This document shows positions 15,012-32,220 of a stretch of 64,000 nt of DNA, in pieces. The stretch spans positions 14,887-78,886 of the forward strand of contig JBBIVV010000004.1 of the NCBI GenBank assembly GCA_037439545.1, written 5' to 3'. Each line of letters opens with the position of its first letter. The stretch's first letter is position 1. The notes under the pieces were generated by a model. That model saw nothing but the letters and a program-made list of their open reading frames with translations, was not told the origin of the DNA and made no database searches. The position numbers and the translations under genes were made by a program. This stretch comes from a bacterium. Lineage in GTDB: Bacteria > JAMCPX01.

Positions 15012-15027
15012 GTAATCTTTTTTTACC

Positions 15028-15618: not shown

Positions 15619-15691
15619 TCTTTTCTCCTTTAGATTTAATCGATATTTTTGTTTTGAAAAAATTCCATTGTTTCACCGACGGCAGCTCGCA

Positions 15692-17679: not shown

Positions 17680-17853
17680 ATACCTTTACCTCCCTTTTGC
17701 CCCGTCGGAAGTTTAACCATCCGCACCTGTCTGCCTTTGCGGAAGATGCCCTCCGGCTAAAACCTTTTCACGGGGTTTACAATCTTTTCCACTCATATTA
17801 AGTATAGTATGCATGATTGATAAATCAAGGGTAAAATAAGCACGCACTGCGGC

Positions 17854-18577: not shown

Positions 18578-19792
18578 ATGAAGTTTCATCTCATATTTCC
18601 AAAATGGCCGAAGTTGCCTTCGCAGACACCTTTCACCCTGCCGCCCTTAGGGATTATCACTGTGGCTGCAAGTATGCCCGATAGTGTTGAAACAAGCGTA
18701 TGCGATGAAAACGTACAACCCGTGGATTTTGACGGCAACTTTGATATTATCGGCATATCCATTATGCTGAGCTGCCAGGCACCGCGGGCTTACGAAATCG
18801 CCCATGAATTTAAAAAACGCGGCAAAACAGTCATCCTCGGGGGACTCCATGTATCGCTGCTCCCGGACGAGGCCGGCCAACACGCCGACAGTATCGTCAC
18901 CGGGGAAGTGGAGGGTCTTTTGGGGGAGATTGTCAAGGACTTCCAGGAAGGTAAGCTTAAAAAATCATACGCGGTAAAGGGTTTTCCGGATATCGCTCAG
19001 ATCCCGAACCCAAGACGGGATCTTTACGACAAAAAAAGACATTATGTGTATAAAGGATGGGAGTTGGTAGATCTTGTCCAGACGTCGCGGGGGTGCCGTT
19101 TTAATTGCTATCCATGCTGTGTGCCTTATCTGGGCGGACGCATGCACCGGATGCGTCCGATCGATCATGTCGTTTCGGACATGAAAACGTGCTCCGACCT
19201 TTTATTCATCGTCGATAATTCTCTGGAGCAGAATGTGGCATGGGAAAAGGAGGTCTTCAGGTCCATGATAGGTATGGGAAAACGCTGGGTATCGCACCCC
19301 ATCTCTCCTGTACCCGAGGTGCTGGACCTGGCACGGAAGGCAGGCTGCTGGTATATTTATCACGCCATATACACCATCTCGGACAAAATCAGAGACAGGA
19401 TAAAGATGTACCACGACTACGGCATCGGAGTGGAAGGCACCATCCTCCTCGGTATGGATGAACATACTGAAGACTTTATCAAGCGGTTCATCGATTTCCT
19501 CCTCACCATAGAGCTTGATCTCGCCGAGTTTACGGTCCTCACGCCGTTTCCAGGCACGCAGGTCTATGAACAAATGAATGCAGAAGGCAGAATATTCGAT
19601 AAAGACTGGAACCATTACAATGCCTCTACAGTGGTCATTCAGCCGCGCCGGATGAAACCGGAAACCCTCCAGAGACTGTACTATGAGGCGTGGGACAATT
19701 TTTATGCTGCCGAATCGCAGTCTGTAAAGATGAGCAGGCTCTTTTTGCAAATATACAAGGACAGGCGGAAGGGTACTCTTGAAAAGGCTTAG
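18578..19792 (+). CDS. B12-binding-domain radical SAM protein
   Basis: N-terminal cobalamin-binding-like region (IIGISIMLSCQ...KTVILGGLHVS) and radical SAM CRFNCYPC (Cx3Cx2C). Confidence 0.8.
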   Translation: MKFHLIFPKWPKLPSQTPFTLPPLGIITVAASMPDSVETSVCDENVQPVDFDGNFDIIGISIMLSCQAPRAYEIAHEFKKRGKTVILGGLHVSLLPDEAGQHADSIVTGEVEGLLGEIVKDFQEGKLKKSYAVKGFPDIAQIPNPRRDLYDKKRHYVYKGWELVDLVQTSRGCRFNCYPCCVPYLGGRMHRMRPIDHVVSDMKTCSDLLFIVDNSLEQNVAWEKEVFRSMIGMGKRWVSHPISPVPEVLDLARKAGCWYIYHAIYTISDKIRDRIKMYHDYGIGVEGTILLGMDEHTEDFIKRFIDFLLTIELDLAEFTVLTPFPGTQVYEQMNAEGRIFDKDWNHYNASTVVIQPRRMKPETLQRLYYEAWDNFYAAESQSVKMSRLFLQIYKDRRKGTLEKA

Positions 19793-19902
19793 GACGAGAC
19801 GTCCTCCCCCTGGCAAAGCTTTATTGTGCCGGCTGCTTGACAATGGAGTATATATTTTTTATAAAAATGCACAGAAGAAAACAGCAATAACGAGGAGATA
19901 GT

Positions 19903-20193
19903 ATGGTAACACAAACAAAAAAATTGACCGTCCAGGATATTCAGTTGAAGGTCTCGGAAATATTTATCAATGAACTTAAGCTTGAAGATGTGACCCCTGA
20001 GACATTGGATCCGGAACTGCACTTGATGGAGGAGCTGGGAATCGACAGCATGGATCTCATAACAGTAGTGTTAGTTCTGAAGGATGAATTCGCAGTCAAT
20101 ATTGATGAGGCTGATTATCCAAAACTTACCAATATCCGGCTTATCGCTGAGTATATTAAGGAGAAAATGGAAAATGCAAGAAGCGCCCGTTGA
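19903..20193 (+). CDS. Acyl carrier protein 1
   Basis: 96 aa with phosphopantetheine attachment motif LGIDSMDL. Confidence 0.8.
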   Translation: MVTQTKKLTVQDIQLKVSEIFINELKLEDVTPETLDPELHLMEELGIDSMDLITVVLVLKDEFAVNIDEADYPKLTNIRLIAEYIKEKMENARSAR

Positions 20194-20464
20194 CAAATTG
20201 CCCGTTGACAAATTGATAGATGAACTGAAAAGAAAGGTTCTCGATATCCTCAATATTCAGGATATCGGCCTGAGCGACATAGACACCAATTCTCCCCTGG
20301 TGGGGAGTAATTTAGGCATTGATTCTATCGATATCCTGGAACTTGTCACTGTCATCGAACATGATTACGGGGTAAAAATAGATAATAAAGAGTTGGGCGA
20401 GAAGGTATTCGCCTCATTTGCCTCTCTGGCACAATATATAGCAGACAATAGGACTCTCATTTGA
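20174..20464 (+). CDS. Acyl carrier protein 2 (overlaps ACP1 by 20 nt, different frame)
   Basis: Start at ATG 20174 (MQEAPVDK...) after AAGGAG. Motif LGIDSIDILE. The ORF track begins further upstream at 20084. Confidence 0.75.
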   Translation: MQEAPVDKLPVDKLIDELKRKVLDILNIQDIGLSDIDTNSPLVGSNLGIDSIDILELVTVIEHDYGVKIDNKELGEKVFASFASLAQYIADNRTLI

Positions 20465-20465
20465 T

Positions 20466-22637
20466 GTGTCCATGATGACACCTGAAGGCATTTTCATCAC
20501 AGGTCTCGGCATCATTAGTCCTCTGGGAAAAGGCCGGCTCTCAACAGTCAGTTCGTTAAAAAATTCATTCTGCGGCATTCACAACGTCAATGTGTTCACG
20601 GTAGCTCCGGACCAGCTCATGCCTGTTGCGGATGTTTCCATCCCTTTCGAAGTTGAGCCCGGAGTCCCGAGGACCCATGCACTTGCACTCGCAGCAGCAC
20701 GCGATGCAATGGAAGGCAAAAACTGTATACCGGACGCCGTGATTATGGGAGTTACAACCGGAGGAATGCCGAAAAGCGAGGTGTTGCTTAAATCAAAGGT
20801 CAGGATCCCTCAGGAGTATACCTATCATGGGGCAGGTACTATCGCCACTTATTTAGCAGAGCATTTCTCGTGTCAGGGACCGGCATTAACCATATCGACC
20901 GCGTGTTCCAGCGGCACGGCAGCCATTATAATAGCACGGGAACTGATCCGGCATGGAAAGGCAGAAAAGGTGCTCGTCGGTGGAGCAGATGCGCTCTGTC
21001 TGTTTACCTATTTCGGGTTTTTTTCGTTGCAGTTAATGGATGCCAGGGGTGCGCGTCCTCTGGACAAGGATCGGGCAGGCATGTCACTGGGTGAAGGTGC
21101 TGCCGTACTCTTTATCGAAAAGTCACAGAGTCCGCCGCCAGGCTCTATCGCACAGATTCTTGGCGGTGGTATTTCCTGCGATGCCTATCATCCGACCGCG
21201 CCGCATCCTGCGGGTGACGGTGCGGTGAAAGCCATGCGCGGGGCCATTGCAGACGCAGGCATCTCGGTCGGCGATATTGAATATGTAAACCTCCACGGGA
21301 CAGCGACACAGGATAACGATGCTTCGGAGGCTATTGCCATCCGGACATTGTTCGGTGACCGGTTCCCCGCACTATCTTCCACCAAAGGTATGACGGGTCA
21401 TTCTCTCGGCGCATCCGGTGCAGTCGAATGTGCCCTCTGTTCATTGTCCGTGTCAGAAGGAATAATCCCGGGGACAATAGGCTGCACGAACCTTGATACA
21501 AAACTCGGAATACCGGCTGTGCTGCACCCGGAAAATCATCCGGTAAGAATTGCCCTCTCCAATTCTTTCGGTTTCGGCGGCAATAATGCCTCTGTGGTAA
21601 TCGGTTCTGCGGACCTACGGCCGCCTGAGCGGCCGCTTATGCATGTCCGGAGCCTGAATGTTATCGGACTTGCTTGTTTAACCGGTGCCGGAGGTGCGGA
21701 TGCCTCTTTCCAAAAATTTTCACAGGGCGATTCTCTCTCCGGGACACTGAGCGATGAAGAGATATCCAGAGACCTTCCCCAGAGACAAATCAGGCGCCTC
21801 AAGAGACTTCCCCGTATGGCACTTGCCCTGGCAAACGCAGCCAGAAAGGATGCCGGTGATAAATTTCACCCTTCCTCGATTTTTTTCGGTACAGGATGGG
21901 GCCCCTTATCCGAGACCTATGACTTTCTTACAAAACTTTTCGGATCCGACATGAGATTTTTCAGCCCGACGGATTTTATCAATTCCGTGCACAATGCACC
22001 GGCGGGCCAGGTGGCCATGGAGTTTAAGGCAATGGGAACGAACCTTACGGCAACAGGCGGGGATTATTCCTTTGAGCAGGCACTTTTGATGGCAAGCCTT
22101 CTGGCCTCGGAAAAGGAAGAGCTCATGCTCTTCGGGGCAGACGAGATGCATCCGGAACTGTCCCCCCTCTTTGATCCCTCGGTCCCCGGTGAGAGAATTC
22201 CCTCTGACGGCGGCGGGGCACTTATGGCAGTGGCAACGACCTCTCCCTCGGGTCCTGCGATAACACCGGTTGTATATCGAATGGCTGCGAAGGATTCCGG
22301 GTGGGCGATAATGAATGACCTCAAGGTTACCGACTTCCATAAACATTATGCTGCTATTTTTGCAGGGATCCCTTCAGCGTATGAAAAAATGGCCGGAGAT
22401 CAGTTAACGGATTTTCTTTCCTCTTCAAAATTTAATGGGCCTGTTATTCACTACCGGAAGTACACAGGTCAATATGCAACATCATCTGCTGTTGCTGCTG
22501 CTCTGGCAGTCAAAATCATACAGCAGGGTTTTCTTCCTGCGGGTTTGACGCACGCCGACGAAGTTTCTCTGGGAGAGAAAGGGATTCTGGTCATGGGTTT
22601 TGGTCCTTATTGCACAGCCGTCGACATCCGTAACTGA
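20466..22637 (+). CDS. Fused ketosynthase - chain-length-factor-like didomain protein (KS-CLF)
   Basis: The N-terminal ~380 aa form an active KS (TACSSGTAAI, HGTATQDND, GHSLGASG). The C-terminal ~340 aa form a second KS fold (IRRLKRLPRMALALANAARKDAG...) in which the active Cys position reads TATGGDYS, with no Cys. Confidence 0.8.
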   Translation: MSMMTPEGIFITGLGIISPLGKGRLSTVSSLKNSFCGIHNVNVFTVAPDQLMPVADVSIPFEVEPGVPRTHALALAAARDAMEGKNCIPDAVIMGVTTGGMPKSEVLLKSKVRIPQEYTYHGAGTIATYLAEHFSCQGPALTISTACSSGTAAIIIARELIRHGKAEKVLVGGADALCLFTYFGFFSLQLMDARGARPLDKDRAGMSLGEGAAVLFIEKSQSPPPGSIAQILGGGISCDAYHPTAPHPAGDGAVKAMRGAIADAGISVGDIEYVNLHGTATQDNDASEAIAIRTLFGDRFPALSSTKGMTGHSLGASGAVECALCSLSVSEGIIPGTIGCTNLDTKLGIPAVLHPENHPVRIALSNSFGFGGNNASVVIGSADLRPPERPLMHVRSLNVIGLACLTGAGGADASFQKFSQGDSLSGTLSDEEISRDLPQRQIRRLKRLPRMALALANAARKDAGDKFHPSSIFFGTGWGPLSETYDFLTKLFGSDMRFFSPTDFINSVHNAPAGQVAMEFKAMGTNLTATGGDYSFEQALLMASLLASEKEELMLFGADEMHPELSPLFDPSVPGERIPSDGGGALMAVATTSPSGPAITPVVYRMAAKDSGWAIMNDLKVTDFHKHYAAIFAGIPSAYEKMAGDQLTDFLSSSKFNGPVIHYRKYTGQYATSSAVAAALAVKIIQQGFLPAGLTHADEVSLGEKGILVMGFGPYCTAVDIRN

Positions 22638-22644
22638 GGCAGTT

Positions 22645-24120
22645 ATGCGTTTAACAGATCATATAATTATTATAGGTTCGGGTATCGGAGGAATGACCGC
22701 TGCAATCGTTCTTGCAAAACTGGGATACCGTGTGACTGTCGTCGAAAAAAACAAACGCCCCGGCGGCCTGATGAGGAGTTATATTCGGGAAGGCGTCGAA
22801 TGCGAAGTCGGGCTCCACTATGTCGGCGCAATGGACACAGGCCAGCCTTTGCGGCAGATCTTCGATCTCCTCGGTATATCGGGGCGTATACCTGCCGTAC
22901 GCATGGGAGAAGACGGGATTGTCGATAAATATATTCTACCCGGGATGGTGTTCGACTTCCCCCCCGGCATTGATATGTTCGAAGAGAACCTTCATAAGGC
23001 TTTCCCTGAAGAAGGCCGCCGGATAGCGGAGATTGCCGCCCTAATCCGCAATGCAATTGTACGCTTTTCCGCTTTGTCAATTTTTTTCGGGGAAAAAGAA
23101 GAGTTTGATCTTTCATGGGAACTACAGCCTGTGGAGAATTACTTTAATAAACTCGGATGTTCCCTGAAATTGCGCAGTATCCTTTCTGTTCCGCTGGCTT
23201 GGCTTGGTGTGGGACCCGGGGAGTGCCCCATGTACCTATGGAGTTCTTCGATATCATCATACCTGATGTCCTCCTGGCGCCTGCCGCAGGGAGGTGCACA
23301 TTTGGCGGATACACTTGCAGAAAGGCTGCGGGGGCTTGGCGGGGAAATCATTTGTAATGACGGAGTCTCCAGGATAACCGTACGTGATCATGCAGTACAG
23401 GGAGTGGTCCTGAAATCCGGGAGAGAATTGGCTTCTTCAGTGATTATAGCGGCAATTCATCCAAAATTAATGCTCCGAATGCTTCCCGCTGATTCTTATA
23501 AACCTTCCTTTAAAAACAGGATCTCATCGCTTCAGGAGACTCCGGGAATATTTGCCGCGCACATCGCAATTCCCGAACAAGAGGTTTCTTACAAACCGTA
23601 TAATATCTTTGCCTTTGATGCGGACAATACCGTGCACGGCGGAGTGACATTTTTTACTATGAAGAAATCTTCCAAGCCCGGGTGGAACTGTATTTCCATC
23701 CTTGAAGAAAGTCCTTATGAAAAGTGGCAGTCCTGGGAAAACACCACAAGGAAACACCGCCCTCAGGATTACAGGGATGCCAAGGATCGGGAGACCGGTA
23801 TTCTTTTGAATAAAGCTTTGAAAATCTTCGGTCATATGCAGGGGGCGCAGGTCGTGGATTCTTTTACCCCGTTATCGTTCTGTGACTGGATGGATAGCCC
23901 GCAGGGGGGTGCCTATGGTGTGAGTCATTCTGTCAGACAGAAGTTTAAAACTGCGGCACTGCACAGGACGCCTCTGTCGGGATTGCACGTGGTGGGACAG
24001 AGCGTTTTTGCCCCGGGTATACTGGGCACTGCTTTGGGAACGCTCCGGGTCATTGCTTCTCTTGTCGGATACGATACTCTGCATCAAAAATTTATTGACT
24101 CACGGGAAGAGGGGATTTAA
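22645..24120 (+). CDS. FAD-dependent oxidoreductase, phytoene-desaturase (CrtI)/amine-oxidase-like
   Basis: Dinucleotide-binding IIIIGSGIGGMTAAIVLAKLGYRVTVVEKN plus the long CrtI-like body. Start at ATG 22645, 8 nt after the KS-CLF stop. Confidence 0.75.
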   Translation: MRLTDHIIIIGSGIGGMTAAIVLAKLGYRVTVVEKNKRPGGLMRSYIREGVECEVGLHYVGAMDTGQPLRQIFDLLGISGRIPAVRMGEDGIVDKYILPGMVFDFPPGIDMFEENLHKAFPEEGRRIAEIAALIRNAIVRFSALSIFFGEKEEFDLSWELQPVENYFNKLGCSLKLRSILSVPLAWLGVGPGECPMYLWSSSISSYLMSSWRLPQGGAHLADTLAERLRGLGGEIICNDGVSRITVRDHAVQGVVLKSGRELASSVIIAAIHPKLMLRMLPADSYKPSFKNRISSLQETPGIFAAHIAIPEQEVSYKPYNIFAFDADNTVHGGVTFFTMKKSSKPGWNCISILEESPYEKWQSWENTTRKHRPQDYRDAKDRETGILLNKALKIFGHMQGAQVVDSFTPLSFCDWMDSPQGGAYGVSHSVRQKFKTAALHRTPLSGLHVVGQSVFAPGILGTALGTLRVIASLVGYDTLHQKFIDSREEGI

Positions 24121-24137: not shown

Positions 24138-25691
24138 ATGAAGAAAAAACATATACACAATAAATCCGTTCAGAAGCCTGTCGTCATCGGAGAAGGTGAT
24201 GTCACGCTCGTTCAGGTAGCAGATATCGCACGCGGCGTGTCCCGCGTTGCGATCAGTTCTCAAAAGAATTTTATCGACAAGATACGGCTGTCTCAAAAAA
24301 CTCTGCAGCGTGTTCTCGATGCCGACGAGCCGATATACGGCGTAACGACCGGATACGGTGCGGCATGCGGCAACAGGATTAAGAAGCACAATACGGAAGA
24401 ACTTGGCAGCAATCTCATAAAATATCACGGCTGCGGCACCGGTGCTCCTTTAGGCATAGAGGAGACGCGTGCGTCTATCGTGGCCAGACTGGTATGCTTT
24501 GCGCGAGGATACTCGGGTGTTTCCGTCAATCTGATGCAGGCCATGGCGGACTTGCTCAATAAAGGTATTACTCCTATCGTCCCGTCTATGGGATCTGTCG
24601 GCGCATCAGGGGACCTCACCCCGATGTCGTATATTGCAGCATGTCTGTCCGGAGACAGGGATGTCCTGTATAAAGGGCGCAGGATGAGCTCAAAAAAAGC
24701 CTTGTCTCAGGCCGGACTATCCCCCTACCGTTTTCTCCCGAAAGAACCTCTCGGTATGATCAACGGGACATCGGTAATGACAGGGATTGCCGTAATCGCT
24801 CTCAAGAAGAGCAGGGTTATCGTTGATATGGCAATGGCGGCAACCGCACTCGCACTCCATGCCCTCATGGGACATGAAAGGCATTTTCATCCGACCGTGG
24901 TCAATTCAAAGCCTCATCCGGGACAGCAACTGGCAGGGGAACGGCTGCGGAATATTTTATCTTCAATAGATCGGCCGCCGGAATCGGACAAGCAGGATCA
25001 TTTTCAGGACCCGTATTCCATTCGCTGCGCTCCCCAGATCATCGGCGTTGCGTACGACGCCCTTGATTGGGCCGAGGAATGGGTCCAGAGAGAGGTAAAC
25101 AGTTCCAACGACAATCCGCTTGCAGACGGCGACCATAAAGAGGTTTTCATGGGCGGTAATTTTTATGGCGGACATATAGCGTTTGCCATGGATGCACTGA
25201 AGAGTGCCCTTGCATCGGTTGCCGATATGATAGACCGTCAGATGGCGCTTTTGGTGGACCAGCGGTACAACCGCGGGCTTCCGGCAAACCTCGTGAAAGT
25301 GAAAGGGGGCAAACAACTGCTCAATCACGGGTTCAAAGGCATGCAGATAACTGCGTCAGCTTTAGCCGCAGAGGCTTTGAAAAACACCATGCCTGCTGCA
25401 TCCTTTTCAAGGTCAACCGAATCTCACAATCAGGACAAGGTGAGTATGGGTACCATTTCAGCGAGGGATGCTGCATGGCAATGCGAATTGGTGGGCCGTG
25501 TTGTCGCCATACATCTCATGGCTGCGGTCCAGGCATGCGAATTGAGAGGCGGCTTGAACGGAAGGCCTGTGCTTGCTTCGCTCGCAAAAGAAGTTCGGAA
25601 AAAAGTCAGGGCAACGGTTTTCGATCGTCCGATGGATAAGGACATTGAAGTTCTTGCAGATGCACTGCCGGAGCTGGTGCGTTCCCTATGA
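24138..25691 (+). CDS. MIO-dependent aromatic amino acid ammonia-lyase (HAL/PAL/TAL family)
   Basis: 517 aa with Ala-Ser-Gly MIO triad in GASGDLTPMSYIAA and conserved YGVTTGYG, NGTS, NDNPL motifs. Confidence 0.85.
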   Translation: MKKKHIHNKSVQKPVVIGEGDVTLVQVADIARGVSRVAISSQKNFIDKIRLSQKTLQRVLDADEPIYGVTTGYGAACGNRIKKHNTEELGSNLIKYHGCGTGAPLGIEETRASIVARLVCFARGYSGVSVNLMQAMADLLNKGITPIVPSMGSVGASGDLTPMSYIAACLSGDRDVLYKGRRMSSKKALSQAGLSPYRFLPKEPLGMINGTSVMTGIAVIALKKSRVIVDMAMAATALALHALMGHERHFHPTVVNSKPHPGQQLAGERLRNILSSIDRPPESDKQDHFQDPYSIRCAPQIIGVAYDALDWAEEWVQREVNSSNDNPLADGDHKEVFMGGNFYGGHIAFAMDALKSALASVADMIDRQMALLVDQRYNRGLPANLVKVKGGKQLLNHGFKGMQITASALAAEALKNTMPAASFSRSTESHNQDKVSMGTISARDAAWQCELVGRVVAIHLMAAVQACELRGGLNGRPVLASLAKEVRKKVRATVFDRPMDKDIEVLADALPELVRSL

Positions 25692-26113
25692 CAGAAGCTG
25701 CTCTGCGGACATACTCCGTCAGACTCCGTGTGCCGTTCCACCATGTCGATCCAATGCAGGTCGTGTGGCATGGACATTACTTCGAATATTTTGAGGCAGC
25801 AAGGGACGGGCTGTTTGAAAGCCTGAACATCAATCTCGAAAGTTTCTATCCGAGCGATGGATACATCTTTCCCGTGATCCGCGGTTCGATAAAATTTATC
25901 CGCCCCCTCCGCTATAAAGATGTGTTTGTATGTACCGCGCGGGCTGCAGATGCAAAACGGAAAATAGTAATCGAGTATGAAATCAAATTGGAGTCCACCG
26001 ATACCCTGTGCACCAGGGGCAGTACGGAACAGATTGTTTTAAAGATGCCGGAAGCACAAATCGAATATGAAATCCCGAAGCTAATCCGCGAGGCAATACG
26101 TCCACACTTATGA
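25688..26113 (+). CDS. 4HBT-family hot-dog thioesterase
   Basis: 141 aa with VPFHHVDPMQVVWHGHYFEYFE. ATGA overlap with the lyase stop. Confidence 0.75.
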   Translation: MTEAALRTYSVRLRVPFHHVDPMQVVWHGHYFEYFEAARDGLFESLNINLESFYPSDGYIFPVIRGSIKFIRPLRYKDVFVCTARAADAKRKIVIEYEIKLESTDTLCTRGSTEQIVLKMPEAQIEYEIPKLIREAIRPHL

Positions 26114-27825
26114 CCGGTGACTTTTTTGATGCACTGAGGGCCGGCATTGAAAGAATTGCTGCATGGTCGGATCTTTTGGATAGTATCAATGTGTTCCCCA
26201 TTGCAGACGGAGATACAGGACGCAACCTGCTCATCAGCCTCTTACCCTTAAAATCATCTCTACGCGATCGCTCTTGTCTCATTGAAAAGCTTTTTCTTTC
26301 TGCCAGAGGCAATTCCGGCAATATTGCCGCGCATTTTTTTTCCGGATTCCTGTCTTCCGGGGACATTGCACGGCTTCCGGAAGCCGTCAGGGCAGGCAGA
26401 AGGCTTGCGTGGCAGGCTGTTGCCGATCCGCAGCCGGGAACCATGCTCAGTGTGTTTGACGAGCTGGAGATCTCCCTCGGTGAATCTTCTCTGGACGATC
26501 GCGGAGCATGGGTTTCCGGTGTAGTGAAGAGATTGGAAAAATCCGTACTGGAAACGACACGGACACTGCCGGTATTAAAGAGCACGGATGTCGTTGATTC
26601 AGGGGCACTGGGCATGTTTATGTTCTTCGATGCCTTTCTGAATGCCCTGTACACAAGAGCTCCCCAATGTGCGCCGCTCACTGCTGTATTCAGGGATCAT
26701 CTTGCCCTCAAAGGACCCTGGACAGGCACCGGGGAATCCGGCGTCTGTATCGATGCGGTCGTGAAATTAAAAAACGGCAGAAAAGGACCGCTCGGGGATC
26801 TGTCGCGGCTCGGAGAAAGTGTGGTTGCCCATGAACTTGGAGGACAGGTTAAGATACATTTTCATACAAAAGACCAGTCTGCTGTCAGGGAGGAACTGTC
26901 CCGTATGGGCAGCATCGTCCAGTGGGTATCCGATGATCTGGGGGTCCAGACCAGGACATTTTCCCCGGAACCCGTCCATCAGGCGATCCATGTCGTAACG
27001 GACGCTGCAGGCAGTCTCACGCGCGACGATGCCAGACAGCTCCATATAACTCTTTTGGACAGCTATATTGCCGTGGGCACGACTGATGCTCCGGAGACCC
27101 ATGTCCGGGGTTCTGAAATGTACCGTGCCATGAACAAGGGTATTAAGGTGACCACGTCCCAGGCATCCGTACTCGAGCGTCATCAGCATTACGAAAAAAT
27201 ATTGAGCCTGTACAATACGGCTCTCTACATATGCGTGGGCTCTGTTTTTACAGGGAACTACCGCACGGTCATGGATTGGAAGAAAGGTCATGACCCGGAA
27301 GACCGTCTCAAAGTCATCGACACAGGGGCTGCTTCAGGAAAACTGGGCCTCATTGCTCTCGCAACGGCACGGTATGCCCGGAGTGCTCCAACCGGGAAAG
27401 ATGTCGTGGATTTTGCCGTGCGTTCCGTAGCCGCTTGTGAGGAGTACATCTTTTTAGACACGCTGCATTTCCTCGCTGCAGGCGGGCGGCTGTCAAAAAC
27501 CAGCGCACTATTCGGAGACATGCTGCGAATGAAACCCGTGGTCAGCCCCTTTGCAGAGGGCGCAAAAAAAGTGGCAGTGGTGCGGAATAAAAAAGAACAG
27601 GCCGCTTTTGCTTTGGAAAAACTCGAAAAGGCCTTTCATGCCGGGGACCGTCCGCTTATTATGCTGGAATATACGGACAACGAAGAATGGATAAAGAACG
27701 ACATCACTGCTTTGATAAGCAGCAGGTTCCCGCATGCAGAGATAATCATACAGGCTTTTTCCCTTACTTCGGGCGCACATATGGGCCCCGGAACATGGGG
27801 CATTGCCTTCCTCCCCGCTCTCTGA
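26110..27825 (+). CDS. DAK2-domain kinase, FakA/YloV-like (fatty-acid-kinase A family), with DegV/Dak1-like (EDD-fold) C-terminal domain
   Basis: N-terminal Dak2 motif FPIADGDTGRNL. C-terminal VVTDAAGSLTRDDARQLHITLLDSYIAVG resembles DegV/Dak1_2 EDD-fold domains. 571 aa matches YloV length. Confidence 0.7.
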   Translation: MTGDFFDALRAGIERIAAWSDLLDSINVFPIADGDTGRNLLISLLPLKSSLRDRSCLIEKLFLSARGNSGNIAAHFFSGFLSSGDIARLPEAVRAGRRLAWQAVADPQPGTMLSVFDELEISLGESSLDDRGAWVSGVVKRLEKSVLETTRTLPVLKSTDVVDSGALGMFMFFDAFLNALYTRAPQCAPLTAVFRDHLALKGPWTGTGESGVCIDAVVKLKNGRKGPLGDLSRLGESVVAHELGGQVKIHFHTKDQSAVREELSRMGSIVQWVSDDLGVQTRTFSPEPVHQAIHVVTDAAGSLTRDDARQLHITLLDSYIAVGTTDAPETHVRGSEMYRAMNKGIKVTTSQASVLERHQHYEKILSLYNTALYICVGSVFTGNYRTVMDWKKGHDPEDRLKVIDTGAASGKLGLIALATARYARSAPTGKDVVDFAVRSVAACEEYIFLDTLHFLAAGGRLSKTSALFGDMLRMKPVVSPFAEGAKKVAVVRNKKEQAAFALEKLEKAFHAGDRPLIMLEYTDNEEWIKNDITALISSRFPHAEIIIQAFSLTSGAHMGPGTWGIAFLPAL

Positions 27826-28212
27826 TAGAGAAATGAGTTGTCCCACAGCGTAGCCACGAGCCTGCGTATGGCATCAAAAACAATCCTGAACTGAAACATA
27901 AAATCGGAAGGAAACCTTTTTAGATTCCTTTTGACCGCCTGATTTAATATTCGGCACCTGTGCATTTGATTTCATGAAACCTCCGGTACATCAACCTAAC
28001 AACTCTATATCTATATATATCGTATTGTGTCAATAAAGCCTTGAGCTTCCGGTAATCGAGGTCGCATTACAGCAAATGTTGATTGTGTTTTTAAAGCACT
28101 AAAAGTTTATTATATGGGTCAGATTATCATGCGTGATAATCCGAAGCGAATTGAAAATGAAGTTTCAAAAAAGCTTTAAGTGAAATAACACTCATGATAT
28201 AATGTTGAATAT

Positions 28213-29019
28213 ATGAGCACAACAACCCCTTCCTGCAGAATACCGCTGTGGCACGTGGTCGTACGGGGCCTGAAAGGCCTGTACATGTTTCTCATGTTTA
28301 TCGTGTTCGGCGGTGCAATACTCTTCGGTCATTTGTTCACGCCGTTCCTGCTTTTTCGCGACAGGCTCGCCGGACATGACCGGCAGTATAACCAGAGGTT
28401 CTACAGGGGGTTTGTTGTGTTATGGCTCTGGTTCATGGAAAAGGGAAGACTGCTGAAGGCCCTCCCCTATAAAGGTGAAATCATGGACGGGCCATGTGTG
28501 GTGATAGCAAATCACCCGGGCCTCTTCGATATTCTCATTTTGATCCGCGATGTTCCGAAGATGTCACTCATTGCAAAACAGTCCCTCAGGACAGGCCTCG
28601 GAATGGGTCATCTGTTCAGACTTGCAGGGTGGGTCTTTGCCTCAGGCAAATCGGATACTTCTATGGTACTTGATACCTCGAACAAGGCGCTGGAACAATT
28701 GAGGGACGGCTATAAGTTTATGCTTTTCCCGGAAGGCACACGGTCTCCCAAGGGTGGACTACACCGCTTCAAGGCCGGTGCTTTCAAGCTCGCACGGGCC
28801 GGACACGTGCCTGTCCAGCCTGTATTGATCTGGAACACGCCGCCGTTCCTGCCGCATGAAGATCACTGGTACTATCCGCCCTATGAAACATCGATCGTCC
28901 GGCTCGAGTTTTTGAAACCACTTCCCCTGCCCGGGGAAAAGGAGGAACGAAGAATAGCTATAGAGACGGAAAACCTGTTCCGCACCGCACTGGGCATGAA
29001 TCGTACGGCTGAAGCGTAG
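28213..29019 (+). CDS. 1-acyl-sn-glycerol-3-phosphate acyltransferase family (PlsC/LPLAT)
   Basis: N-terminal TM, HX4D motif (ANHPGLFD), FPEGTRS motif. Preceded by a 387-bp AT-rich non-coding gap with a TATAAT ~10 nt upstream. Confidence 0.8.
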   Translation: MSTTTPSCRIPLWHVVVRGLKGLYMFLMFIVFGGAILFGHLFTPFLLFRDRLAGHDRQYNQRFYRGFVVLWLWFMEKGRLLKALPYKGEIMDGPCVVIANHPGLFDILILIRDVPKMSLIAKQSLRTGLGMGHLFRLAGWVFASGKSDTSMVLDTSNKALEQLRDGYKFMLFPEGTRSPKGGLHRFKAGAFKLARAGHVPVQPVLIWNTPPFLPHEDHWYYPPYETSIVRLEFLKPLPLPGEKEERRIAIETENLFRTALGMNRTAEA

Positions 29020-29115: not shown

Positions 29116-30348
29116 ATGTCTGAAGGACGAAGGGTTGTAGTTACCGGCATCGGGTTCCGCTCTCCCATAGGAAACACGTTGAAAGCCATGAAGGAATCTC
29201 TGCAAAGCGGACGCGGCGGCATCAGAGTAATGCCGGAATGGAACAATGTCGATCATCTGCGCACCAGAGTTGCGGGTGTGTGCGGTGACGTTGACGATAA
29301 AGTGATCCCGCGCAACTACAGGCGGAGCATGGGCAGGGTTTCTGTCCTTGCCGCCATAGCAGCCTTGGAAGCGATTGCCGACTCGGGCATCAGCGAGCAA
29401 GAGATCGGTTCGCCTCTATGCGGGGTCTCATTCGGATCGACTGCCGGCAGTTCCGAATCCATGGAAGGCTTCGTTAAGGACGTTTTTACCAGTCGAAGCC
29501 TCAAGGGATTGCAATCATCCGTATACCTGCAGTTCATGAGTCATACCTGTGCTGCAAATCTCGCAATGATGTTTCATACCAAAGGGCCTGTCGTTGCCTC
29601 GTGCACGGCATGCGTGTCCGGGTCGCAGGGAGTGGGCTTCGGATACGAGGCGATAAAAGCAGGCCGTGCCGATATAATGCTTGCAGGCGGTGCAGAGGAA
29701 ATGCACTTTATGGATGCGGGGATTTTCGATATTATGAGAGCAACTTCGACGAAATATAATGATCGCCCTGACTCCACGCCCCGTCCCTTTGATGTCGACC
29801 GGGACGGACTGGTGGTCGGAGAGGGAGCAGGATGTCTTGTTCTCGAGGAATATGATCACGCGAGATTCAGGGGAGCACGCATCTACAGTGAAGTCGTCGG
29901 TTACGGGACGAACTGCGACGGCTCTCATCTGACAAATCCGAGCGCCGAGGGAATGGCGGGAGCCATGAAGATCGCATTGAAAGATGCGGGCATGTCTGCG
30001 TCTGACATTGGTCATGTCAACGCACACGCCACGGCAACATCTGCCGGAGATACGGCTGAGGCAGCCGCCACCCACGAGATATTCGGGACATCGGTGCAGG
30101 TTAGCGCGCTCAAAGGTTTCACCGGACATACGCTCGGGGCATGCGGGGCGATTGAATCCATAGAAACCATTTTGATGATCAATGAGCATTTTATAGCTGC
30201 GTCAAAAAATCTTGAAACCCCTGATCCTGCACTGCCTCCACTGAACCATGTGATAGGTGGTGCACGGGACTTTTCCTTCGATATAGGGATGAACAATAAT
30301 TTTGCATTCGGAGGGATTAACACATCCCTTATATTCCGCAGGGTATGA
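29116..30348 (+). CDS. Beta-ketoacyl-ACP synthase (FabF/FabB-like)
   Basis: 410 aa with CTACVSGSQG, HATATSAGD, GHTLGACG. Confidence 0.9.
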   Translation: MSEGRRVVVTGIGFRSPIGNTLKAMKESLQSGRGGIRVMPEWNNVDHLRTRVAGVCGDVDDKVIPRNYRRSMGRVSVLAAIAALEAIADSGISEQEIGSPLCGVSFGSTAGSSESMEGFVKDVFTSRSLKGLQSSVYLQFMSHTCAANLAMMFHTKGPVVASCTACVSGSQGVGFGYEAIKAGRADIMLAGGAEEMHFMDAGIFDIMRATSTKYNDRPDSTPRPFDVDRDGLVVGEGAGCLVLEEYDHARFRGARIYSEVVGYGTNCDGSHLTNPSAEGMAGAMKIALKDAGMSASDIGHVNAHATATSAGDTAEAAATHEIFGTSVQVSALKGFTGHTLGACGAIESIETILMINEHFIAASKNLETPDPALPPLNHVIGGARDFSFDIGMNNNFAFGGINTSLIFRRV

Positions 30349-30367
30349 TAGTGCCGCAGACGGAAAC

Positions 30368-30745
30368 ATGGCGATACTGCACACAATAGCTACCTATGTC
30401 AGTCATACGGCATACGGCCGTGCGGCAGTTGAATCGAAGGCTGATTTGAGTCTTTTCAAAAAGCCGCCTTCTTTCCCCTTTATCCTCGGTCTTATCCTCC
30501 TGGGTTTGAGCTACGTGATCGGATGGCCCGGTGTCGTGGTCAGCGGAATCGCTGCAGCGTATCTGAAAAATCCGTTGATTTTCGTCATTGGAGGACCTGC
30601 GATATATGCCGTCTCTTTTCTGGTATGGGCTGTTTCCATGCTGCTTATGGGGAAAGATAATATCAAGTATGCACGTGCATTTACAAAATACGGGGTGCGG
30701 ATCCTCATCGAAAGGTTTGCTCCGCCGCCCTCACCGGGTAAATAA
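30368..30745 (+). CDS. Small integral membrane protein (3 predicted TM)
   Basis: Hydrophobic ORF starting at the ATG right after the KS stop; the ORF track starts at 30302 within the KS. Confidence 0.4.
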   Translation: MAILHTIATYVSHTAYGRAAVESKADLSLFKKPPSFPFILGLILLGLSYVIGWPGVVVSGIAAAYLKNPLIFVIGGPAIYAVSFLVWAVSMLLMGKDNIKYARAFTKYGVRILIERFAPPPSPGK

Positions 30746-31396
30746 CCCGTCTGTGCGATTCAGTGGTTCTCCTTCGAGAAGTTCCAGAGACAGCGAATAT
30801 CCGGTCCCTGCATAAGACTCCAGGTGCATACGTTTATATAACCCTTCGACGAGCGGAGGAAATAGTGACACCTTGCGCAATATCTTATGATCCGGACCGT
30901 ATTCCCGGATGATTGTTATTCCTGAAGCCCCGGAGTTTTTTTCAAATACATTTCCACTGCTTGTCCATCTGCACATGAGGGAGCCGTCTTCGTGTACCTT
31001 TGCATCCGTGAGGTCCCCCTGGCCGGGAAAAAACATGAACTCAATATCGCTGAACAGTCCGCGGGTAAACTCTCCGGACAAAAATTGCTGCATGGTGCGA
31101 TAGATGGTTATAGACCCTTTATCGCTTACAGCGTCTAAGAGGACCAGTCCTTCGACACTGAGTAAGGTAGCGCGAATTCGGTCACCGGATGCATCGACTA
31201 TGGTCACGCCTATGAAGGAACTGCTCTTTCCCCGAACATCGACGTCGATAATATGGACAGCCCGGAAGATACCCGGAGAGATCGCGGCAAAGCATTTTTT
31301 CTGAAGATAAGGATTGATCACCACTGCGGGCTTCGGGGGCACCGGGATGCTGCATGATAATCCGGTCAAAGCGAAAATCAGAAGAAGAAGCTTCAT
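30731..31396 (-). CDS. Lipoprotein, unknown function
   Basis: Signal peptide plus lipobox (LTGLSCS). Start overlaps the LolA-like stop (ATGA coupling). Confidence 0.5.
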   Translation of the reverse strand: MKLLLLIFALTGLSCSIPVPPKPAVVINPYLQKKCFAAISPGIFRAVHIIDVDVRGKSSSFIGVTIVDASGDRIRATLLSVEGLVLLDAVSDKGSITIYRTMQQFLSGEFTRGLFSDIEFMFFPGQGDLTDAKVHEDGSLMCRWTSSGNVFEKNSGASGITIIREYGPDHKILRKVSLFPPLVEGLYKRMHLESYAGTGYSLSLELLEGEPLNRTDGLFTR

Positions 31397-32010
31397 TTTA
31401 CATCTTCGAACGTTGTGTCCGATATCTTCGCATTTAAAGCTATGTGCGAAAACTCAAGTACGGTGGATGAACCCTGGGGTTCGAGTATTTCAATAGTGGA
31501 AATGACCCCTGATGTGCCGGACAGCGTCAGGGTGATACGCCTGATGAAGTTTTTTAAATAATCCTTGTTCGGAATAAGTATTATCCGCCGTGGTTTCCCG
31601 GGTATCAGTTTCGGAACAAATGCGCTGTTGTCATGGAAATTCCCCCTGAGCCATGAAGCAATCTGCTCCATCACTATACGCGTTGCCTGCAATTGAGGGC
31701 CGGAATCCTTTATAAAATGATCCTTTGTCCAGACATACTGTGTAACCTTGTCCCCATGGACGAGAAGAACGTTTTTAACCGGATATATATACTCCCACCG
31801 GACATCTCCGGGGGCACGAAAGTAAAAACGGCCGTCACTGACCAGCGGTCTTGCGAGGATTTTAAGGTTTTTTTTCTGGGTAAAATGCGCTGAGATAGAG
31901 TGGACACCGGACATGTCCTGCCGGATGCTCTCCCAATTCTCTGTCCATCCCGCCCTTGCAAGGACCGGCATCATAAGTATCATCGCAAAGGTGAGAATGC
32001 TTCGTCTCAT
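31393..32010 (-). CDS. LolA-like outer-membrane lipoprotein carrier family protein
   Basis: Signal peptide MRRSILTFAMILMMPVLARA, then a LolA-like region (SISAHFTQKKNLKILARPLVSDGRFYF). Start chosen at the internal ATG; the ORF track extends to 32214. Confidence 0.55.
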   Translation of the reverse strand: MRRSILTFAMILMMPVLARAGWTENWESIRQDMSGVHSISAHFTQKKNLKILARPLVSDGRFYFRAPGDVRWEYIYPVKNVLLVHGDKVTQYVWTKDHFIKDSGPQLQATRIVMEQIASWLRGNFHDNSAFVPKLIPGKPRRIILIPNKDYLKNFIRRITLTLSGTSGVISTIEILEPQGSSTVLEFSHIALNAKISDTTFEDVK

Positions 32011-32220
32011 ATTTAATCGAAAAAGTTCCTCCATAGGGTTCACATGATCCTTCAAAACACCTTCGTTTTTAAATCCTAAATCCGAACATCCATATCCTAA
32101 ATAAACCAAAAATCTTAGAAGTAAATGACCAAAATAAATTAACAATTTATTTTGGATTTTTGTCGTTTGATATTGTTTAGTGATTAGGATTTTGAGTTTG
32201 GGGTTTGATTGCATAAACTG

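What the first reader, a model, noticed from the sequence alone, without database searches (positions are those of the whole stretch)
24138..27825. MIO ammonia-lyase + thioesterase + FakA-like kinase operon tail with no AMP-ligase: possible alternative starter or product activation route
- **The ammonia-lyase:** it has the ASG triad (GASGDLTPMSYIA), so it should make an aryl-acrylic acid (cinnamate, coumarate or urocanate), the classical aryl-polyene/flexirubin starter.
- **The missing ligase:** those systems need an acyl-AMP ligase (ApeH-like) to load the acid. None is present in the 24-kb cluster.
- **The kinase instead:** the operon ends with a 571-aa DAK2-domain kinase of the FakA/YloV type (DGDTG motif plus an EDD-fold C-terminal domain), directly upstream of a PlsC-like acyltransferase unit.
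- **Hypothesis:** a carboxylic acid, either the starter or the thioesterase-released product, is activated as an acyl-phosphate rather than an acyl-AMP or CoA.
Basis: inference. Interest (0 to 1): 0.7.

Follow-up and report, generated by a model that had tools for sequence, protein, structure and literature searches.

The report
One-chain fatty-acid kinase in lipid cluster
The three genes are real and sit at the end of an operon in a widespread, uncharacterised lipid-pigment gene cluster of sulfate-reducer-type bacteria, and the "kinase" is a fatty-acid kinase fused to its own fatty-acid-binding subunit that more likely re-activates a long-chain acid for lipid assembly than replaces the missing starter ligase.

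Summary
Window 24138-27825 encodes three overlapping genes: an MIO ammonia-lyase (ASG triad), a YbgC/4HBT hotdog thioesterase, and a 571-aa Dak2 protein. No AMP-ligase occurs anywhere in the 64 kb.

One correction: the C-terminal domain is a true DegV/FakB fatty-acid-binding domain, not FakA's own C domain. The protein is a one-chain FakA(N+M)-FakB fusion with every Mg/ATP, zinc-finger and carboxylate-binding residue conserved.

Comparative genomics (about 165 related loci) places the fusion in an aryl-polyene-like, radical-SAM ("Kuenenia/Desulfotalea-type") lipid cluster of Desulfobacterota, Spirochaetota and others.
- Lyases of this clade are almost always followed by the kinase (54/62).
- Only about 45% of kinase clusters have the lyase.
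- 64% of kinase clusters also carry an AMP-ligase.
- No kinase residue co-varies with lyase presence.
- The kinase's steadiest neighbours are the thioesterase upstream and lipid-assembly genes downstream.

The kinase is therefore not a general ligase substitute. The best reading is thioesterase-released (or free) long-chain acid → acyl-phosphate → glycerolipid assembly. Starter activation stays possible only for this ligase-less subclade. I rate it a new variant of a known kind, of moderate interest.

The parts
24138..25691 (+). MIO (4-methylideneimidazol-5-one) aromatic amino acid ammonia-lyase or aminomutase, 517 aa. It belongs to a distinct clade with switch residues Y96-H97.
   Evidence: - PF00221 E=5.5e-155.
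- Below the cut-offs of the HutH, BagA TAL, FlxA TAL, PAL and aminomutase NCBIfam models.
- ASG triad at 156-158; catalytic Tyr in YGVTTGYG (residue 67); DPYSIRC; NQD motif.
- The clade is conserved in 33 cluster lyases as [F/Y]-H-G-C-G.
25688..26113 (+). Hotdog-fold thioesterase (YbgC/4HBT class), 141 aa. It occupies the ApeK-like position and overlaps both neighbouring genes by 4 bp.
   Evidence: - PF03061 and PF13279.
- TIGR00051 scores 54 bits, below its cut-off of 68.7.
- PDB matches 1z54 and 6fdg (4-hydroxybenzoyl-CoA thioesterase), with the Asp of HHVDP aligned.
- It is the immediate upstream neighbour of the kinase in 49/83 related loci.
26110..27825 (+). One-chain fatty-acid kinase, 571 aa. 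FakA_N (Dak2, res ~5-181) + FakA_M zinc-finger domain (res ~210-282) + DegV/FakB fatty-acid-binding domain (res 293-569).
   Evidence: - Pfam Dak2, FakA-like_M and DegV; NCBIfam DegV above its cut-off.
- PDB sequence hits: DegV 1pzx, and FakA 7w7h/8vip over the N part only.
- AlphaFold2 model with pLDDT 88 and pTM 0.90; Foldseek matches.
- Conserved in 119 homologues: D33, D35, C213, H250, H252, T349, T381, R460, H557.
27826..28212 (.). AT-rich 388-bp intergenic gap separating the kinase from the PlsC/KS unit.
   Evidence: Sequence read. No consensus promoter or terminator was found. In relative L002 the same gap holds a PIN toxin pair.
28213..29019 (+). PlsC/AGPAT-family acyltransferase (ApeD-like) with an N-terminal membrane segment.
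   Evidence: PF01553 E=4.5e-22. HX4D (NHPGLFD) and FPEGTR motifs.
29116..30348 (+). Beta-ketoacyl-ACP synthase of the PRK09116 type.
   Evidence: NF006587 scores 467.7 bits against a cut-off of 470. It recurs downstream of the kinase in relatives.
30302..32952 (.). Conserved accessory block: a 147-aa unknown (+), a 221-aa unknown (-), a LolA-like carrier (31393-32214, -) and a FabG-type ketoreductase (32221-32952, -).
   Evidence: Pfam LolA and adh_short. Best NCBIfam match for the LolA-like protein is flexirubin LolA2, below cut-off. All four co-occur with the kinase in many loci.
18578..24120 (+). Proximal part of the same operon.
- B12-binding radical SAM (18578-19792)
- ACP (19903-20193)
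- ACP (about 20174-20464)
- fused KS-CLF, 723 aa (20466-22637)
- CrtD/phytoene-desaturase-like flavoprotein (22600-24120)
   Evidence: Pfam and NCBIfam. ACP DSxD motifs. The same gene order occurs in L002 and L003.
9166..18426 (-). Divergent operon of the cluster.
- DH-DH-PPTase fusion (9166-10755)
- second hotdog thioesterase (10940-11440)
- two KS (11441-12706, 12713-13963)
- radical SAM (14010-15011)
- 196-aa unknown
- radical SAM (15692-16873)
- YceI-like protein (16936-17679)
- 190-aa unknown
   Evidence: Pfam and NCBIfam. The same block occurs in L010, L026, L062 and L067.

Best explanation
The three genes form the distal end of the + strand operon of a roughly 25-kb lipid/pigment cluster at 9.2-33 kb. 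The cluster combines aryl-polyene-type genes with three radical-SAM enzymes and a phytoene-desaturase-like flavoprotein. The aryl-polyene-type genes are a fused KS-CLF, two ACPs, further KS, a KR, dehydratases, a hotdog thioesterase, a LolA-like carrier and a PlsC-like acyltransferase. This is the 'Kuenenia/Desulfotalea-type' unusual FASII cluster.

**The lyase** belongs to a cluster-specific MIO clade. It probably supplies an aryl-acrylic acid. This step is optional, because about half of the related clusters lack it.

**The 571-aa protein** is a self-contained fatty-acid kinase. Its DegV domain binds a carboxylic acid through the FakB-type T/T/R/H network. Its Dak2 domain transfers the gamma-phosphate of ATP to give an acyl-phosphate.

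**Most likely route:**
1. The adjacent thioesterase releases a cluster-made (or other long-chain) acid from its dedicated ACP.
2. The kinase converts the acid to acyl-phosphate.
3. Acyl-phosphate is the form required by the PlsX/PlsY route of glycerolipid assembly.
4. The cluster's PlsC-like acyltransferase (or GT2/LpxL-like enzymes in relatives) then completes the lipid.

**Shown:** domain identities, conserved residues, synteny statistics. **Inferred:** the substrate, acyl-phosphate formation, and the PlsX/PlsY hand-off.
For: **Domain architecture and fold**
-.

**Catalytic residues**
- The Mg/ATP aspartates D33 and D35 correspond to FakA D37/D39, whose mutation markedly reduces FakA activity (except D39A) (PMC10848957).
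- C213, H250 and H252 correspond to the FakA_M zinc finger.
- T349, T381, R460 and H557 correspond by alignment to FakB T61, S93, R170 and H264.
- The Arg is the residue that FakA's own C domain lacks.
- All of these are conserved in 119 homologues.

**Synteny from the kinase side (83 loci)**
- Thioesterase immediately upstream in 49 loci.
- GT2 immediately downstream in 45, PlsC in 9, KS in 6.
- The kinase always lies inside this cluster type.
- It is present with or without the lyase, and with or without ligases.
- No residue tracks lyase presence.

**Precedents**
- FakAB → acyl-phosphate → PlsY, or PlsX → acyl-ACP (PMC10848957; PMC10146087).
- In E. coli/Xenorhabdus aryl-polyene lipids, the thioesterase ApeK sits in the attachment module. 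The product is a glycerol-phosphate-based lipid built by a PlsC-like ApeD and by ApeJ.
Against: - No PlsX or PlsY gene lies in any cluster inspected.
- PF01553 acyltransferases are known to use thioesters, not acyl-phosphates.
- About a third of kinase clusters lack a recognisable adjacent thioesterase.
- For E. coli/Xenorhabdus ApeK, no hydrolysis of APE-ACP was seen in vitro, and a proofreading role was proposed instead.
- Nothing here measures ligand or activity.
- The confident AlphaFold2 model does not show whether catalysis occurs in cis or across a dimer.
- The tight lyase→kinase linkage (54/62) and the total absence of a ligase in this subclade remain compatible with starter activation.
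Confidence: 0.42

Rival explanations
1. The kinase activates the lyase product (cinnamate/coumarate-like acid) as an aryl-acryloyl phosphate. That intermediate is then passed to an ACP, for example by PlsX. The kinase thereby replaces the ApeH-like or 4CL-like ligase in this ligase-less subclade.
For: - No ligase of either type in the 64-kb window or in the flanks of its closest relatives L002, L003 and L006.
- Lyase-clade genes are followed by the kinase in 54/62 loci, and in 22/23 with long flanks.
- Rare kinase-less variants (L145/146, L152) have a 4-coumarate-CoA-ligase-like gene placed divergently next to the lyase.
- Fak+PlsX can load free acids onto ACP in vitro.
Against: - About 55% of kinase clusters have no lyase.
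- 30/47 well-covered loci have kinase plus ligase. In Desulfobulbales and Allochromatium the 4CL-like ligase lies directly upstream of the kinase.
- No kinase residue differs between lyase-plus and lyase-minus clusters.
- The best structural matches of the DegV domain are crystal structures of DegV/FakB proteins that bind long-chain fatty acids.
- The kinase is positioned next to assembly and export genes.
Confidence: 0.13
2. General primer activation. The kinase phosphorylates a free (fatty or other) acid that serves as primer for the cluster's KS/CLF system. The acid enters through PlsX and an ACP, whichever primer a given cluster uses.
For: - The kinase is a universal member of the cluster family, whereas the lyase and the ligases are facultative.
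- In the PlsX pathway, exogenous acids activated by Fak are converted to acyl-ACP.
Against: - It does not explain the adjacency to a thioesterase and to GT2/MMPL/LpxL-like genes.
- Two thirds of clusters already encode a ligase.
Confidence: 0.15
3. The Dak2-DegV protein is not a carboxylate kinase in this setting. It either phosphorylates a hydroxyl of a bound lipid (glycerol or diacylglycerol type) to build the phospho head group used by the GT2, or it is a lipid-binding, regulatory or chaperone protein.
For: - Dak2 domains phosphorylate hydroxyls in dihydroxyacetone kinases.
- Known aryl-polyene lipids contain a glycerol-phosphate-GalNAc backbone. The neighbouring GT2 resembles a polyprenyl-phospho-GalNAc synthase.
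Against: - The full FakB carboxylate-binding set, including the Arg that stabilises the carboxylate, is conserved.
- The window's own cluster has no GT2.
Confidence: 0.12
4. Housekeeping fatty-acid scavenging kinase that merely happens to lie beside the cluster.
For: FakAB systems serve exogenous fatty-acid uptake. The public annotation is only 'DegV family protein'.
Against: - The gene overlaps the thioesterase gene.
- It lies inside this cluster type in essentially all the loci kept from the kinase-anchored scan that have usable flanks. These come from Desulfobacterota, Spirochaetota, SAR324 and a gammaproteobacterium, despite extensive rearrangement.
Confidence: 0.06

Closest known systems
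FakA/FakB two-component fatty acid kinase of Firmicutes (S. aureus, S. suis; PDB 7w7h, 8vip, 5uto)
   Same: - The Dak2 ATP/Mg domain with the DxD motif.
- The FakA_M Cys/His zinc-finger residues.
- A DegV domain with the T/S/R/H carboxylate network.
- The same N-M-C domain order as FakA.
   Different: - It is a single polypeptide. FakA's ligand-less C domain, which lacks the Arg, is replaced by a complete FakB-type domain.
- The NCBIfam FakA and FakB1 equivalog models score far below their cut-offs (78 bits against 975; 55 against 350).
- The host is a Gram-negative lineage, whereas Fak is described as a Gram-positive strategy.
- It is encoded inside a specialised lipid cluster rather than as a scavenging system.
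Aryl-polyene (APE) lipid gene clusters of E. coli CFT073 and Xenorhabdus doucetiae, and flexirubin clusters
   Same: KS/CLF, two ACPs, KR, dehydratases, a hotdog thioesterase (ApeK position), a LolA-like carrier and a PlsC-like acyltransferase (ApeD). Relatives also carry GT2, LpxL-like (ApeJ-like) and MMPL (ApeM) genes. An ammonia-lyase supplying an aryl acid parallels flexirubin FlxA.
   Different: - No ApeH-type ligase, GT or MMPL gene in this window.
- Extra genes: three radical-SAM enzymes, a CrtD-like flavoprotein, YceI and the Dak2-DegV kinase. None of these is listed in the E. coli APE gene table as read.
- The lyase scores below the FlxA cut-off (325 bits against 700).
- The product is unknown.
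Unusual FASII/'ladderane' clusters of Kuenenia stuttgartiensis and Desulfotalea psychrophila (Rattray et al. 2009, PMC2649909)
   Same: Multiple divergent FabF paralogues, radical-SAM enzymes including a B12-binding one, a phytoene-desaturase-like enzyme and ACPs. Relatives also have a phenylacetate-CoA-ligase-like gene and a glycosyltransferase.
   Different: - Orthology to the Kuste/DP genes was not tested here.
- That paper mentions neither a lyase nor a kinase/DegV gene.
- TIGR04072 rSAM_ladder_B12 matches at only 60 bits against a cut-off of 360.
Bacterial TAL/PAL/HAL MIO enzymes (RsTAL 2o6y, AvPAL 2nyn, P. putida HAL 1gkm)
   Same: ASG triad, catalytic Tyr, the Tyr/Arg of DPYSxRC, and overall about 270 bits to PAL/TAL structures.
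   Different: - The selectivity pair is Y-H (F-H in most of the clade), against H-L in TAL, F-L in PAL and S-H in HAL.
- The residue at HAL's Glu414 position is Gln, as in PAL/TAL.

Membership tests
MIO aromatic amino acid lyase/aminomutase superfamily (PF00221) | Ala-Ser-Gly triad that forms the MIO prosthetic group, plus the full-length domain | tested here: met
   GASGDL at residues 155-160. PF00221 scores 517 bits over profile positions 2-465 of 466.
Histidine ammonia-lyase HutH (TIGR01225) | Score above the equivalog cut-off; S-H selectivity pair; Glu414; hut gene context | tested here: not met
   - 428.6 bits against a cut-off of 539.
- Y96-H97 instead of S82-H83.
- Gln at the Glu414 position (position mapping by inference).
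- No hutU or hutI in the window.
Tyrosine ammonia-lyase (RsTAL / flexirubin FlxA type) | His-Leu selectivity switch; score above the FlxA or BagA cut-offs | tested here: not met
   The switch is Y-H here and F-H in most clade members. FlxA scores 325 bits against 700; BagA scores 414 against 1000.
Phenylalanine ammonia-lyase (cyanobacterial/plant type) | Phe-Leu selectivity pair; score above the TIGR01226 cut-off | tested here: inconclusive
   The first position is aromatic: F in most of the clade, Y here. The second is His, not Leu. TIGR01226 scores 325 bits against 519. The best PDB hit is AvPAL at 3e-81.
FakA (fatty acid kinase catalytic subunit) | Dak2 domain with Mg-binding DxD and a nucleotide loop | tested here: met
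   D33-G-D35-T-G, ARGNSGN and VVDxGALG are invariant. Foldseek TM 0.76-0.77 to the S. aureus FakA_N domain.
FakA (fatty acid kinase catalytic subunit) | FakA_M domain with a Cys/His zinc finger | tested here: met
   PF21645 E=3.7e-7. C213, H250 and H252 are invariant. These correspond to C244/H289/H291 of S. suis FakA. The fourth ligand was not identified.
FakA (fatty acid kinase catalytic subunit) | FakA_C domain (DegV-like but lacking the carboxylate Arg) that docks a separate FakB; score above the FakA/YloV cut-offs | tested here: not met
   - The C domain matches DegV proper and keeps R460.
- NF038248 scores 78 bits against 975; TIGR03599 scores 141 against 396. Both cover residues 5-287 only.
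DegV / FakB fatty-acid-binding proteins | DegV domain above cut-off, and the carboxylate hydrogen-bond network (Thr, Ser/Thr, Arg, His) | tested here: met
   - TIGR00762 scores 147.7 bits against 99.7.
- T349, T381, R460 and H557 are conserved in 119 sequences.
- TM 0.77-0.86 to fatty-acid-loaded DegV/FakB structures.
DegV / FakB fatty-acid-binding proteins | Binds a fatty acid and presents it for phosphorylation to acyl-phosphate | not testable with these tools
   This needs ligand analysis and a kinase assay of the purified protein.
Aryl-polyene (APE) biosynthetic gene cluster | Type II KS/CLF pair, dedicated ACP(s), KR, DH, thioesterase, LolA-like carrier, PlsC-like acyltransferase | tested here: met
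   Domain assignments, compared with the E. coli APE gene table.
Aryl-polyene (APE) biosynthetic gene cluster | ApeH-type adenylating enzyme that loads the aryl starter; ApeJ glycosyl/acyltransferase; ApeM RND exporter | tested here: not met
   All three are absent from the window. They are present in many related clusters.
Aryl-polyene (APE) biosynthetic gene cluster | The product is an aryl-capped conjugated polyene acid attached to a lipid | not testable with these tools
   This requires chemical analysis of a producer.

The most novel reading that the evidence does not exclude
A self-sufficient, single-chain FakA-FakB fatty-acid kinase is a signature enzyme of a very widespread lipid cluster family. 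Carriers include Desulfobacterota, Spirochaetota, SAR324 and some Gammaproteobacteria. In this reading, acyl-phosphate rather than an acyl-AMP or thioester is an obligatory intermediate in building a specialised polyene/aryl-polyene-type membrane lipid. In ligase-less subclades such as this one, the same kinase may even prime the polyketide with the lyase-derived aryl-acrylic acid.
Probability: 0.35. Interest if true: 0.65.

Novelty: new variant of a known kind. Interest (0 to 1): 0.5.

Why it matters
- **Fak outside its textbook setting.** Fatty-acid kinase chemistry (acyl-phosphate formation) is treated as a Gram-positive scavenging device. Here a fused, apparently autonomous version is hard-wired into a specialised lipid cluster of Gram-negative anaerobes.
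- **An untouched cluster family.** The products of these aryl-polyene-like, 'ladderane-like' clusters remain unknown 17 years after they were first noticed.
- **A tractable entry point.** The protein is soluble and its AlphaFold2 model is confident. Its bound ligand would directly reveal the acyl chain the cluster makes.
- **A clue to Fak evolution.** The fusion looks like an evolutionary intermediate: a FakA whose C domain still binds the substrate.
- **A distinct lyase clade.** The lyase clade with an F/Y-H selectivity pair is a candidate for new substrate specificity among MIO enzymes.

Tried and rejected
- **Hidden AMP-ligase in the window.** I looked with Pfam on essentially all large ORFs and with tblastn using two ligase types from relatives. 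None was found.
- **Housekeeping histidase.** Rejected: the HutH score is sub-threshold, the residue at Glu414 is Gln, and there are no hut genes.
- **Kinase as a mutually exclusive substitute for a ligase.** Rejected as a general rule: 30/47 loci have both, and ligase presence is independent of lyase presence. Three kinase-less loci with an adjacent 4CL-like ligase are too few to revive it.
- **Kinase residues that track lyase presence.** None was found at an 80% within-class conservation threshold.
- **Literature.** Searches for 'aryl polyene' with DegV, for ladderane with ammonia-lyase, and for fused FakA/FakB found no description of this association. The only relevant mention is that Dak2-DegV fusions exist (Erni 2006, cited in bioRxiv 2021.02.16.431466).
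- **Terminator or promoter scan of the gap after the kinase.** Nothing found, so the 'operon tail' is plausible but unproven.
- **Active-site geometry.** Model coordinates are not exposed, so I could not measure the distance between the ATP site and the carboxylate site or the pocket size.

Full report
**1. What is at 24138-27825**

ORF listing and Pfam/NCBIfam scans confirm three co-directional genes that overlap by 4 bp each.
- A 517-aa MIO enzyme at 24138-25691 (PF00221, E=5.5e-155).
- A 141-aa hotdog thioesterase at 25688-26113 (4HBT/YbgC class).
- A 571-aa Dak2-domain protein at 26110-27825.

The lyase carries GASGDLTPMSYIA with the A156-S157-G158 triad, the catalytic Tyr (YGVTTGYG) and the DPYSIRC motif. 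The thioesterase keeps the catalytic Asp of YbgC-type enzymes (HHVDP). A 388-bp AT-rich gap follows, with no consensus terminator or promoter. After the gap comes a PlsC-family acyltransferase with HX4D and FPEGTR motifs.

**2. The kinase is a FakA-FakB fusion**

Residues 30-177 match Dak2, residues 229-282 match FakA-like_M, and residues 293-569 match DegV (E=1.4e-38; TIGR00762 scores 147.7 bits against a cut-off of 99.7). The YloV and FakA models match only residues 5-287 and fall far below their cut-offs. PDB sequence searches agree: DegV 1pzx matches the C part, and FakA 7w7h/8vip match the N part.

An AlphaFold2 model built from 54 homologues is confident (pLDDT 88.4, pTM 0.90). Foldseek superposes the C domain on fatty-acid-loaded DegV/FakB crystal structures (TM 0.77-0.86). 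It superposes the N domain on S. aureus FakA_N (TM 0.76-0.77).

I compared the residues with the S. suis FakA-FakB2 study (PMC10848957).
- D33 and D35 correspond to the Mg/ATP aspartates D37 and D39.
- C213, H250 and H252 correspond to the FakA_M zinc finger.
- T349, T381, R460 and H557 correspond by alignment to the FakB carboxylate network T61, S93, R170 and H264.
- FakA's own C domain is DegV-like but lacks that Arg. This protein keeps it.

All of these residues are conserved in 119 homologues. More precisely, the protein is a one-chain kinase that carries its own substrate-binding subunit. Dak2-DegV fusions have been noted before (Erni 2006, cited). I found no study of them. Public annotation reads only 'DegV family EDD domain-containing protein'.

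**3. The cluster**

The + strand operon from 18.6 to 27.8 kb encodes, in order:
- a B12-radical SAM enzyme;
- two ACPs;
- a fused KS-CLF;
- a CrtD-like flavoprotein;
- the lyase, the thioesterase and the kinase.

Downstream lie PlsC, a PRK09116-type KS and a conserved 147-aa unknown. On the - strand there are a 221-aa unknown, a LolA-like protein and a KR.

A divergent operon from 9.2 to 18.4 kb encodes a DH-DH-PPTase fusion, a second thioesterase, two KS, two radical-SAM enzymes, a YceI-like protein and two unknowns.

The flanks are housekeeping genes: argS, aspS and an O-antigen-ligase/TPR protein on one side; FecR, PBP1, LpxL, LpxK, dnaN and dnaA on the other.

The gene content combines the aryl-polyene (APE) set described for E. 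coli and Xenorhabdus with the radical-SAM and phytoene-desaturase set of the Kuenenia/Desulfotalea 'unusual FASII' clusters.

No AMP-binding ligase exists anywhere in the 64 kb. Pfam found none on the large ORFs, and tblastn with two ligase types gave nothing better than E=0.2. GT2, MMPL and cluster-type LpxL-like genes are also absent.

**4. Comparative genomics from the kinase side**

The fusion has thousands of homologues in metagenomes, 50-75% identical. The 80 best loci come from Syntrophales, Desulfobacterales, Desulfobulbales, Spirochaetota/Leptospirales, SAR324 and Allochromatium palmeri.

I mapped the window's proteins, plus genes from relative L004, onto all loci.
- The kinase lies inside this cluster type wherever the flanks are long enough to judge.
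- Its immediate upstream neighbour is the thioesterase in 49/83 loci.
- Its immediate downstream neighbour is a GT2 in 45, PlsC in 9 and a KS in 6.
- Among 50 loci with at least 6 kb on both sides, 23 have the lyase and 34 have the thioesterase.

**5. Comparative genomics from the lyase side**

The lyase's closest homologues are all uncharacterised MAG proteins. A metagenome scan anchored on the lyase clade gave 80 loci.
- Of 62 loci with at least 1.5 kb downstream, 54 carry the kinase.
- Of 23 loci with at least 5 kb on both sides, 22 carry it.
- Two long-contig examples show the lyase-(thioesterase)-kinase unit even when it is separated from the KS/ACP genes.

The lyase clade is therefore an optional accessory of kinase-containing clusters. 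The reverse does not hold.

**6. Ligases in relatives**

Two AMP-ligase types recur in the related clusters.
- A 522-aa PRK06187-like enzyme.
- A short 447-475-aa enzyme whose best specific match is bacterial 4-coumarate-CoA ligase TIGR02372, at 99 bits against a cut-off of 335.

With both types counted, 30 of 47 well-covered kinase loci have a ligase, independent of lyase presence: 13 of 21 lyase-plus loci and 17 of 26 lyase-minus loci.

In Desulfobulbales and Allochromatium the order is B12-rSAM, 4CL-like ligase, kinase, GT2, LpxL-like. The ligase there occupies the slot that lyase and thioesterase occupy elsewhere. L007 shares the window's cluster architecture and has the 4CL-like ligase 8.6 kb upstream.

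Only the window's own subclade (window, L002, L003, L006) shows no ligase in the available sequence. Three kinase-less loci (L145/146, L152) have the 4CL-like ligase placed divergently beside the lyase. This hints at substitution, but three loci are too few to weigh much.

No kinase alignment column distinguishes lyase-plus (86) from lyase-minus (33) clusters at 80% within-class conservation.

**7. Lyase specificity**

The alignments to RsTAL and AvPAL and to P. putida HAL let me read the selectivity pair. I recalled the HAL segment from memory, and one search confirmed it as identical to PDB 1eb4/1gkm.

| Enzyme | Selectivity pair |
|---|---|
| TAL | H89-L90 |
| PAL | F107-L108 |
| HAL | S82-H83 |
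| This window | Y96-H97 |
| 33 cluster lyases | [F/Y]-H-G-C-G, mostly F-H |

The position of HAL Glu414 is Gln here (SHNQDKVSMG), as in PAL/TAL. All specific NCBIfam models score below their cut-offs.

The enzyme is thus not a histidase and not a canonical TAL or PAL. A cinnamate- or coumarate-type product is plausible but unproven. Aminomutase activity is not excluded.

**8. Mechanism**

The data strongly support a carboxylate kinase that forms an acyl-phosphate and belongs functionally to the cluster. Its constant partners are the thioesterase and the lipid-assembly genes, not the lyase or the absence of a ligase.

Acyl-phosphate is the obligatory donor for PlsY, and PlsX interconverts it with acyl-ACP. 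From general knowledge, most bacteria outside the Gammaproteobacteria rely on PlsX/PlsY for the first acylation of glycerol-3-phosphate.

The route I consider most likely (confidence about 0.4) has four steps:
1. The thioesterase frees an acid from the cluster's dedicated ACP.
2. The fused kinase re-activates the acid as acyl-phosphate.
3. Housekeeping PlsY, or PlsX, passes it into a glycerolipid.
4. The cluster's PlsC-like enzyme completes the lipid. In relatives it is then glycosylated, acylated and exported, analogous to ApeD/ApeJ/ApeM.

A general primer-activation role (about 0.15) and a non-carboxylate role (about 0.12) are the other rivals.

**9. Novelty and verdict**

- The cluster family has been known since 2009, and fatty-acid kinase chemistry is well characterised.
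- The fusion architecture has been noted before but never studied.
- I found no report of its systematic association with this cluster family and with a dedicated MIO lyase clade.
- I rate this a new variant of a known kind, of moderate interest (0.5).
- The specific 'kinase instead of ligase' interpretation is only partly supported.

Noticed in passing
L072-L078, L083, L084 (about 8.6-10.0 kb in each locus): In Desulfobulbales and Allochromatium palmeri a short 4-coumarate-CoA-ligase-like gene lies between the B12-radical SAM gene and the kinase. This is exactly the slot where lyase and thioesterase sit in Syntrophales-type clusters, so the two look like alternative cassettes.
   Followed up: partly
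window 9166-10755 (-): A 529-aa protein that fuses two polyketide-type dehydratase (double hotdog) regions to a C-terminal 4'-phosphopantetheinyl transferase domain. This is an unusual tri-domain arrangement, and it recurs in related clusters (DH_PPT).
   Followed up: no
window 20466-22637 (+): Ketosynthase and chain-length-factor-like domains are fused in one 723-aa protein (PF00109/PF02801 plus PF13723). In E. coli aryl-polyene clusters these are separate ApeO and ApeC proteins.
   Followed up: no
window 14010-16873 (-): Two paralogous non-B12 radical-SAM genes (31% identical) flank a conserved 196-aa unknown. They match no NCBIfam equivalog. They may correspond to the Kuste3342/3343-DP1853/1855 pair discussed for ladderane/PUFA synthesis, but orthology was not tested.
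   Followed up: no
window 16936-17679 (-): A YceI-like (polyisoprenoid/lipid-binding) protein is encoded inside the cluster and is conserved in L003.
   Followed up: no
window 27826-28212; L002 12015-12535: The AT-rich gap after the kinase is empty here. In relative L002 it holds a small ORF plus a PIN-domain toxin gene, which suggests a toxin-antitoxin insertion at an operon boundary.
   Followed up: no
window 44000-48000: A low-GC stretch (0.35-0.37, against about 0.47 elsewhere) around dnaN (44841-45935, -) and a 446-aa ORF at 46124-47464 (-). I took that ORF for dnaA from its position and did not scan it. The window probably spans the chromosomal replication origin.
   Followed up: no
window 19903-20464 (+): The second ACP ORF as listed (20084-20464) overlaps the first by 110 nt. 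The Pfam match and the sequence suggest the real start is the internal Met near 20174 (MQEAPVDK...).
   Followed up: partly
L004 13325-14071 (+): The GT2 that usually follows the kinase in relatives best matches polyprenyl-phospho-N-acetylgalactosaminyl synthase PpgS, at 89 bits and below cut-off. This is notable because known aryl-polyene lipids carry a GalNAc-phosphate-glycerol backbone.
   Followed up: no
L086 (5.98-Mb contig), 10001-16289: A split version of the cluster: lyase, thioesterase and kinase, two conserved unknowns, LolA and KR. It stands alone between housekeeping genes with no KS or ACP nearby.
   Followed up: no
window 52842-57381 (+): GlpA/GlpB-like glycerol-3-phosphate dehydrogenase subunits and a PLD-type (cardiolipin-synthase-like) gene lie about 20 kb downstream of the cluster. 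They are probably unrelated housekeeping lipid metabolism.
   Followed up: no
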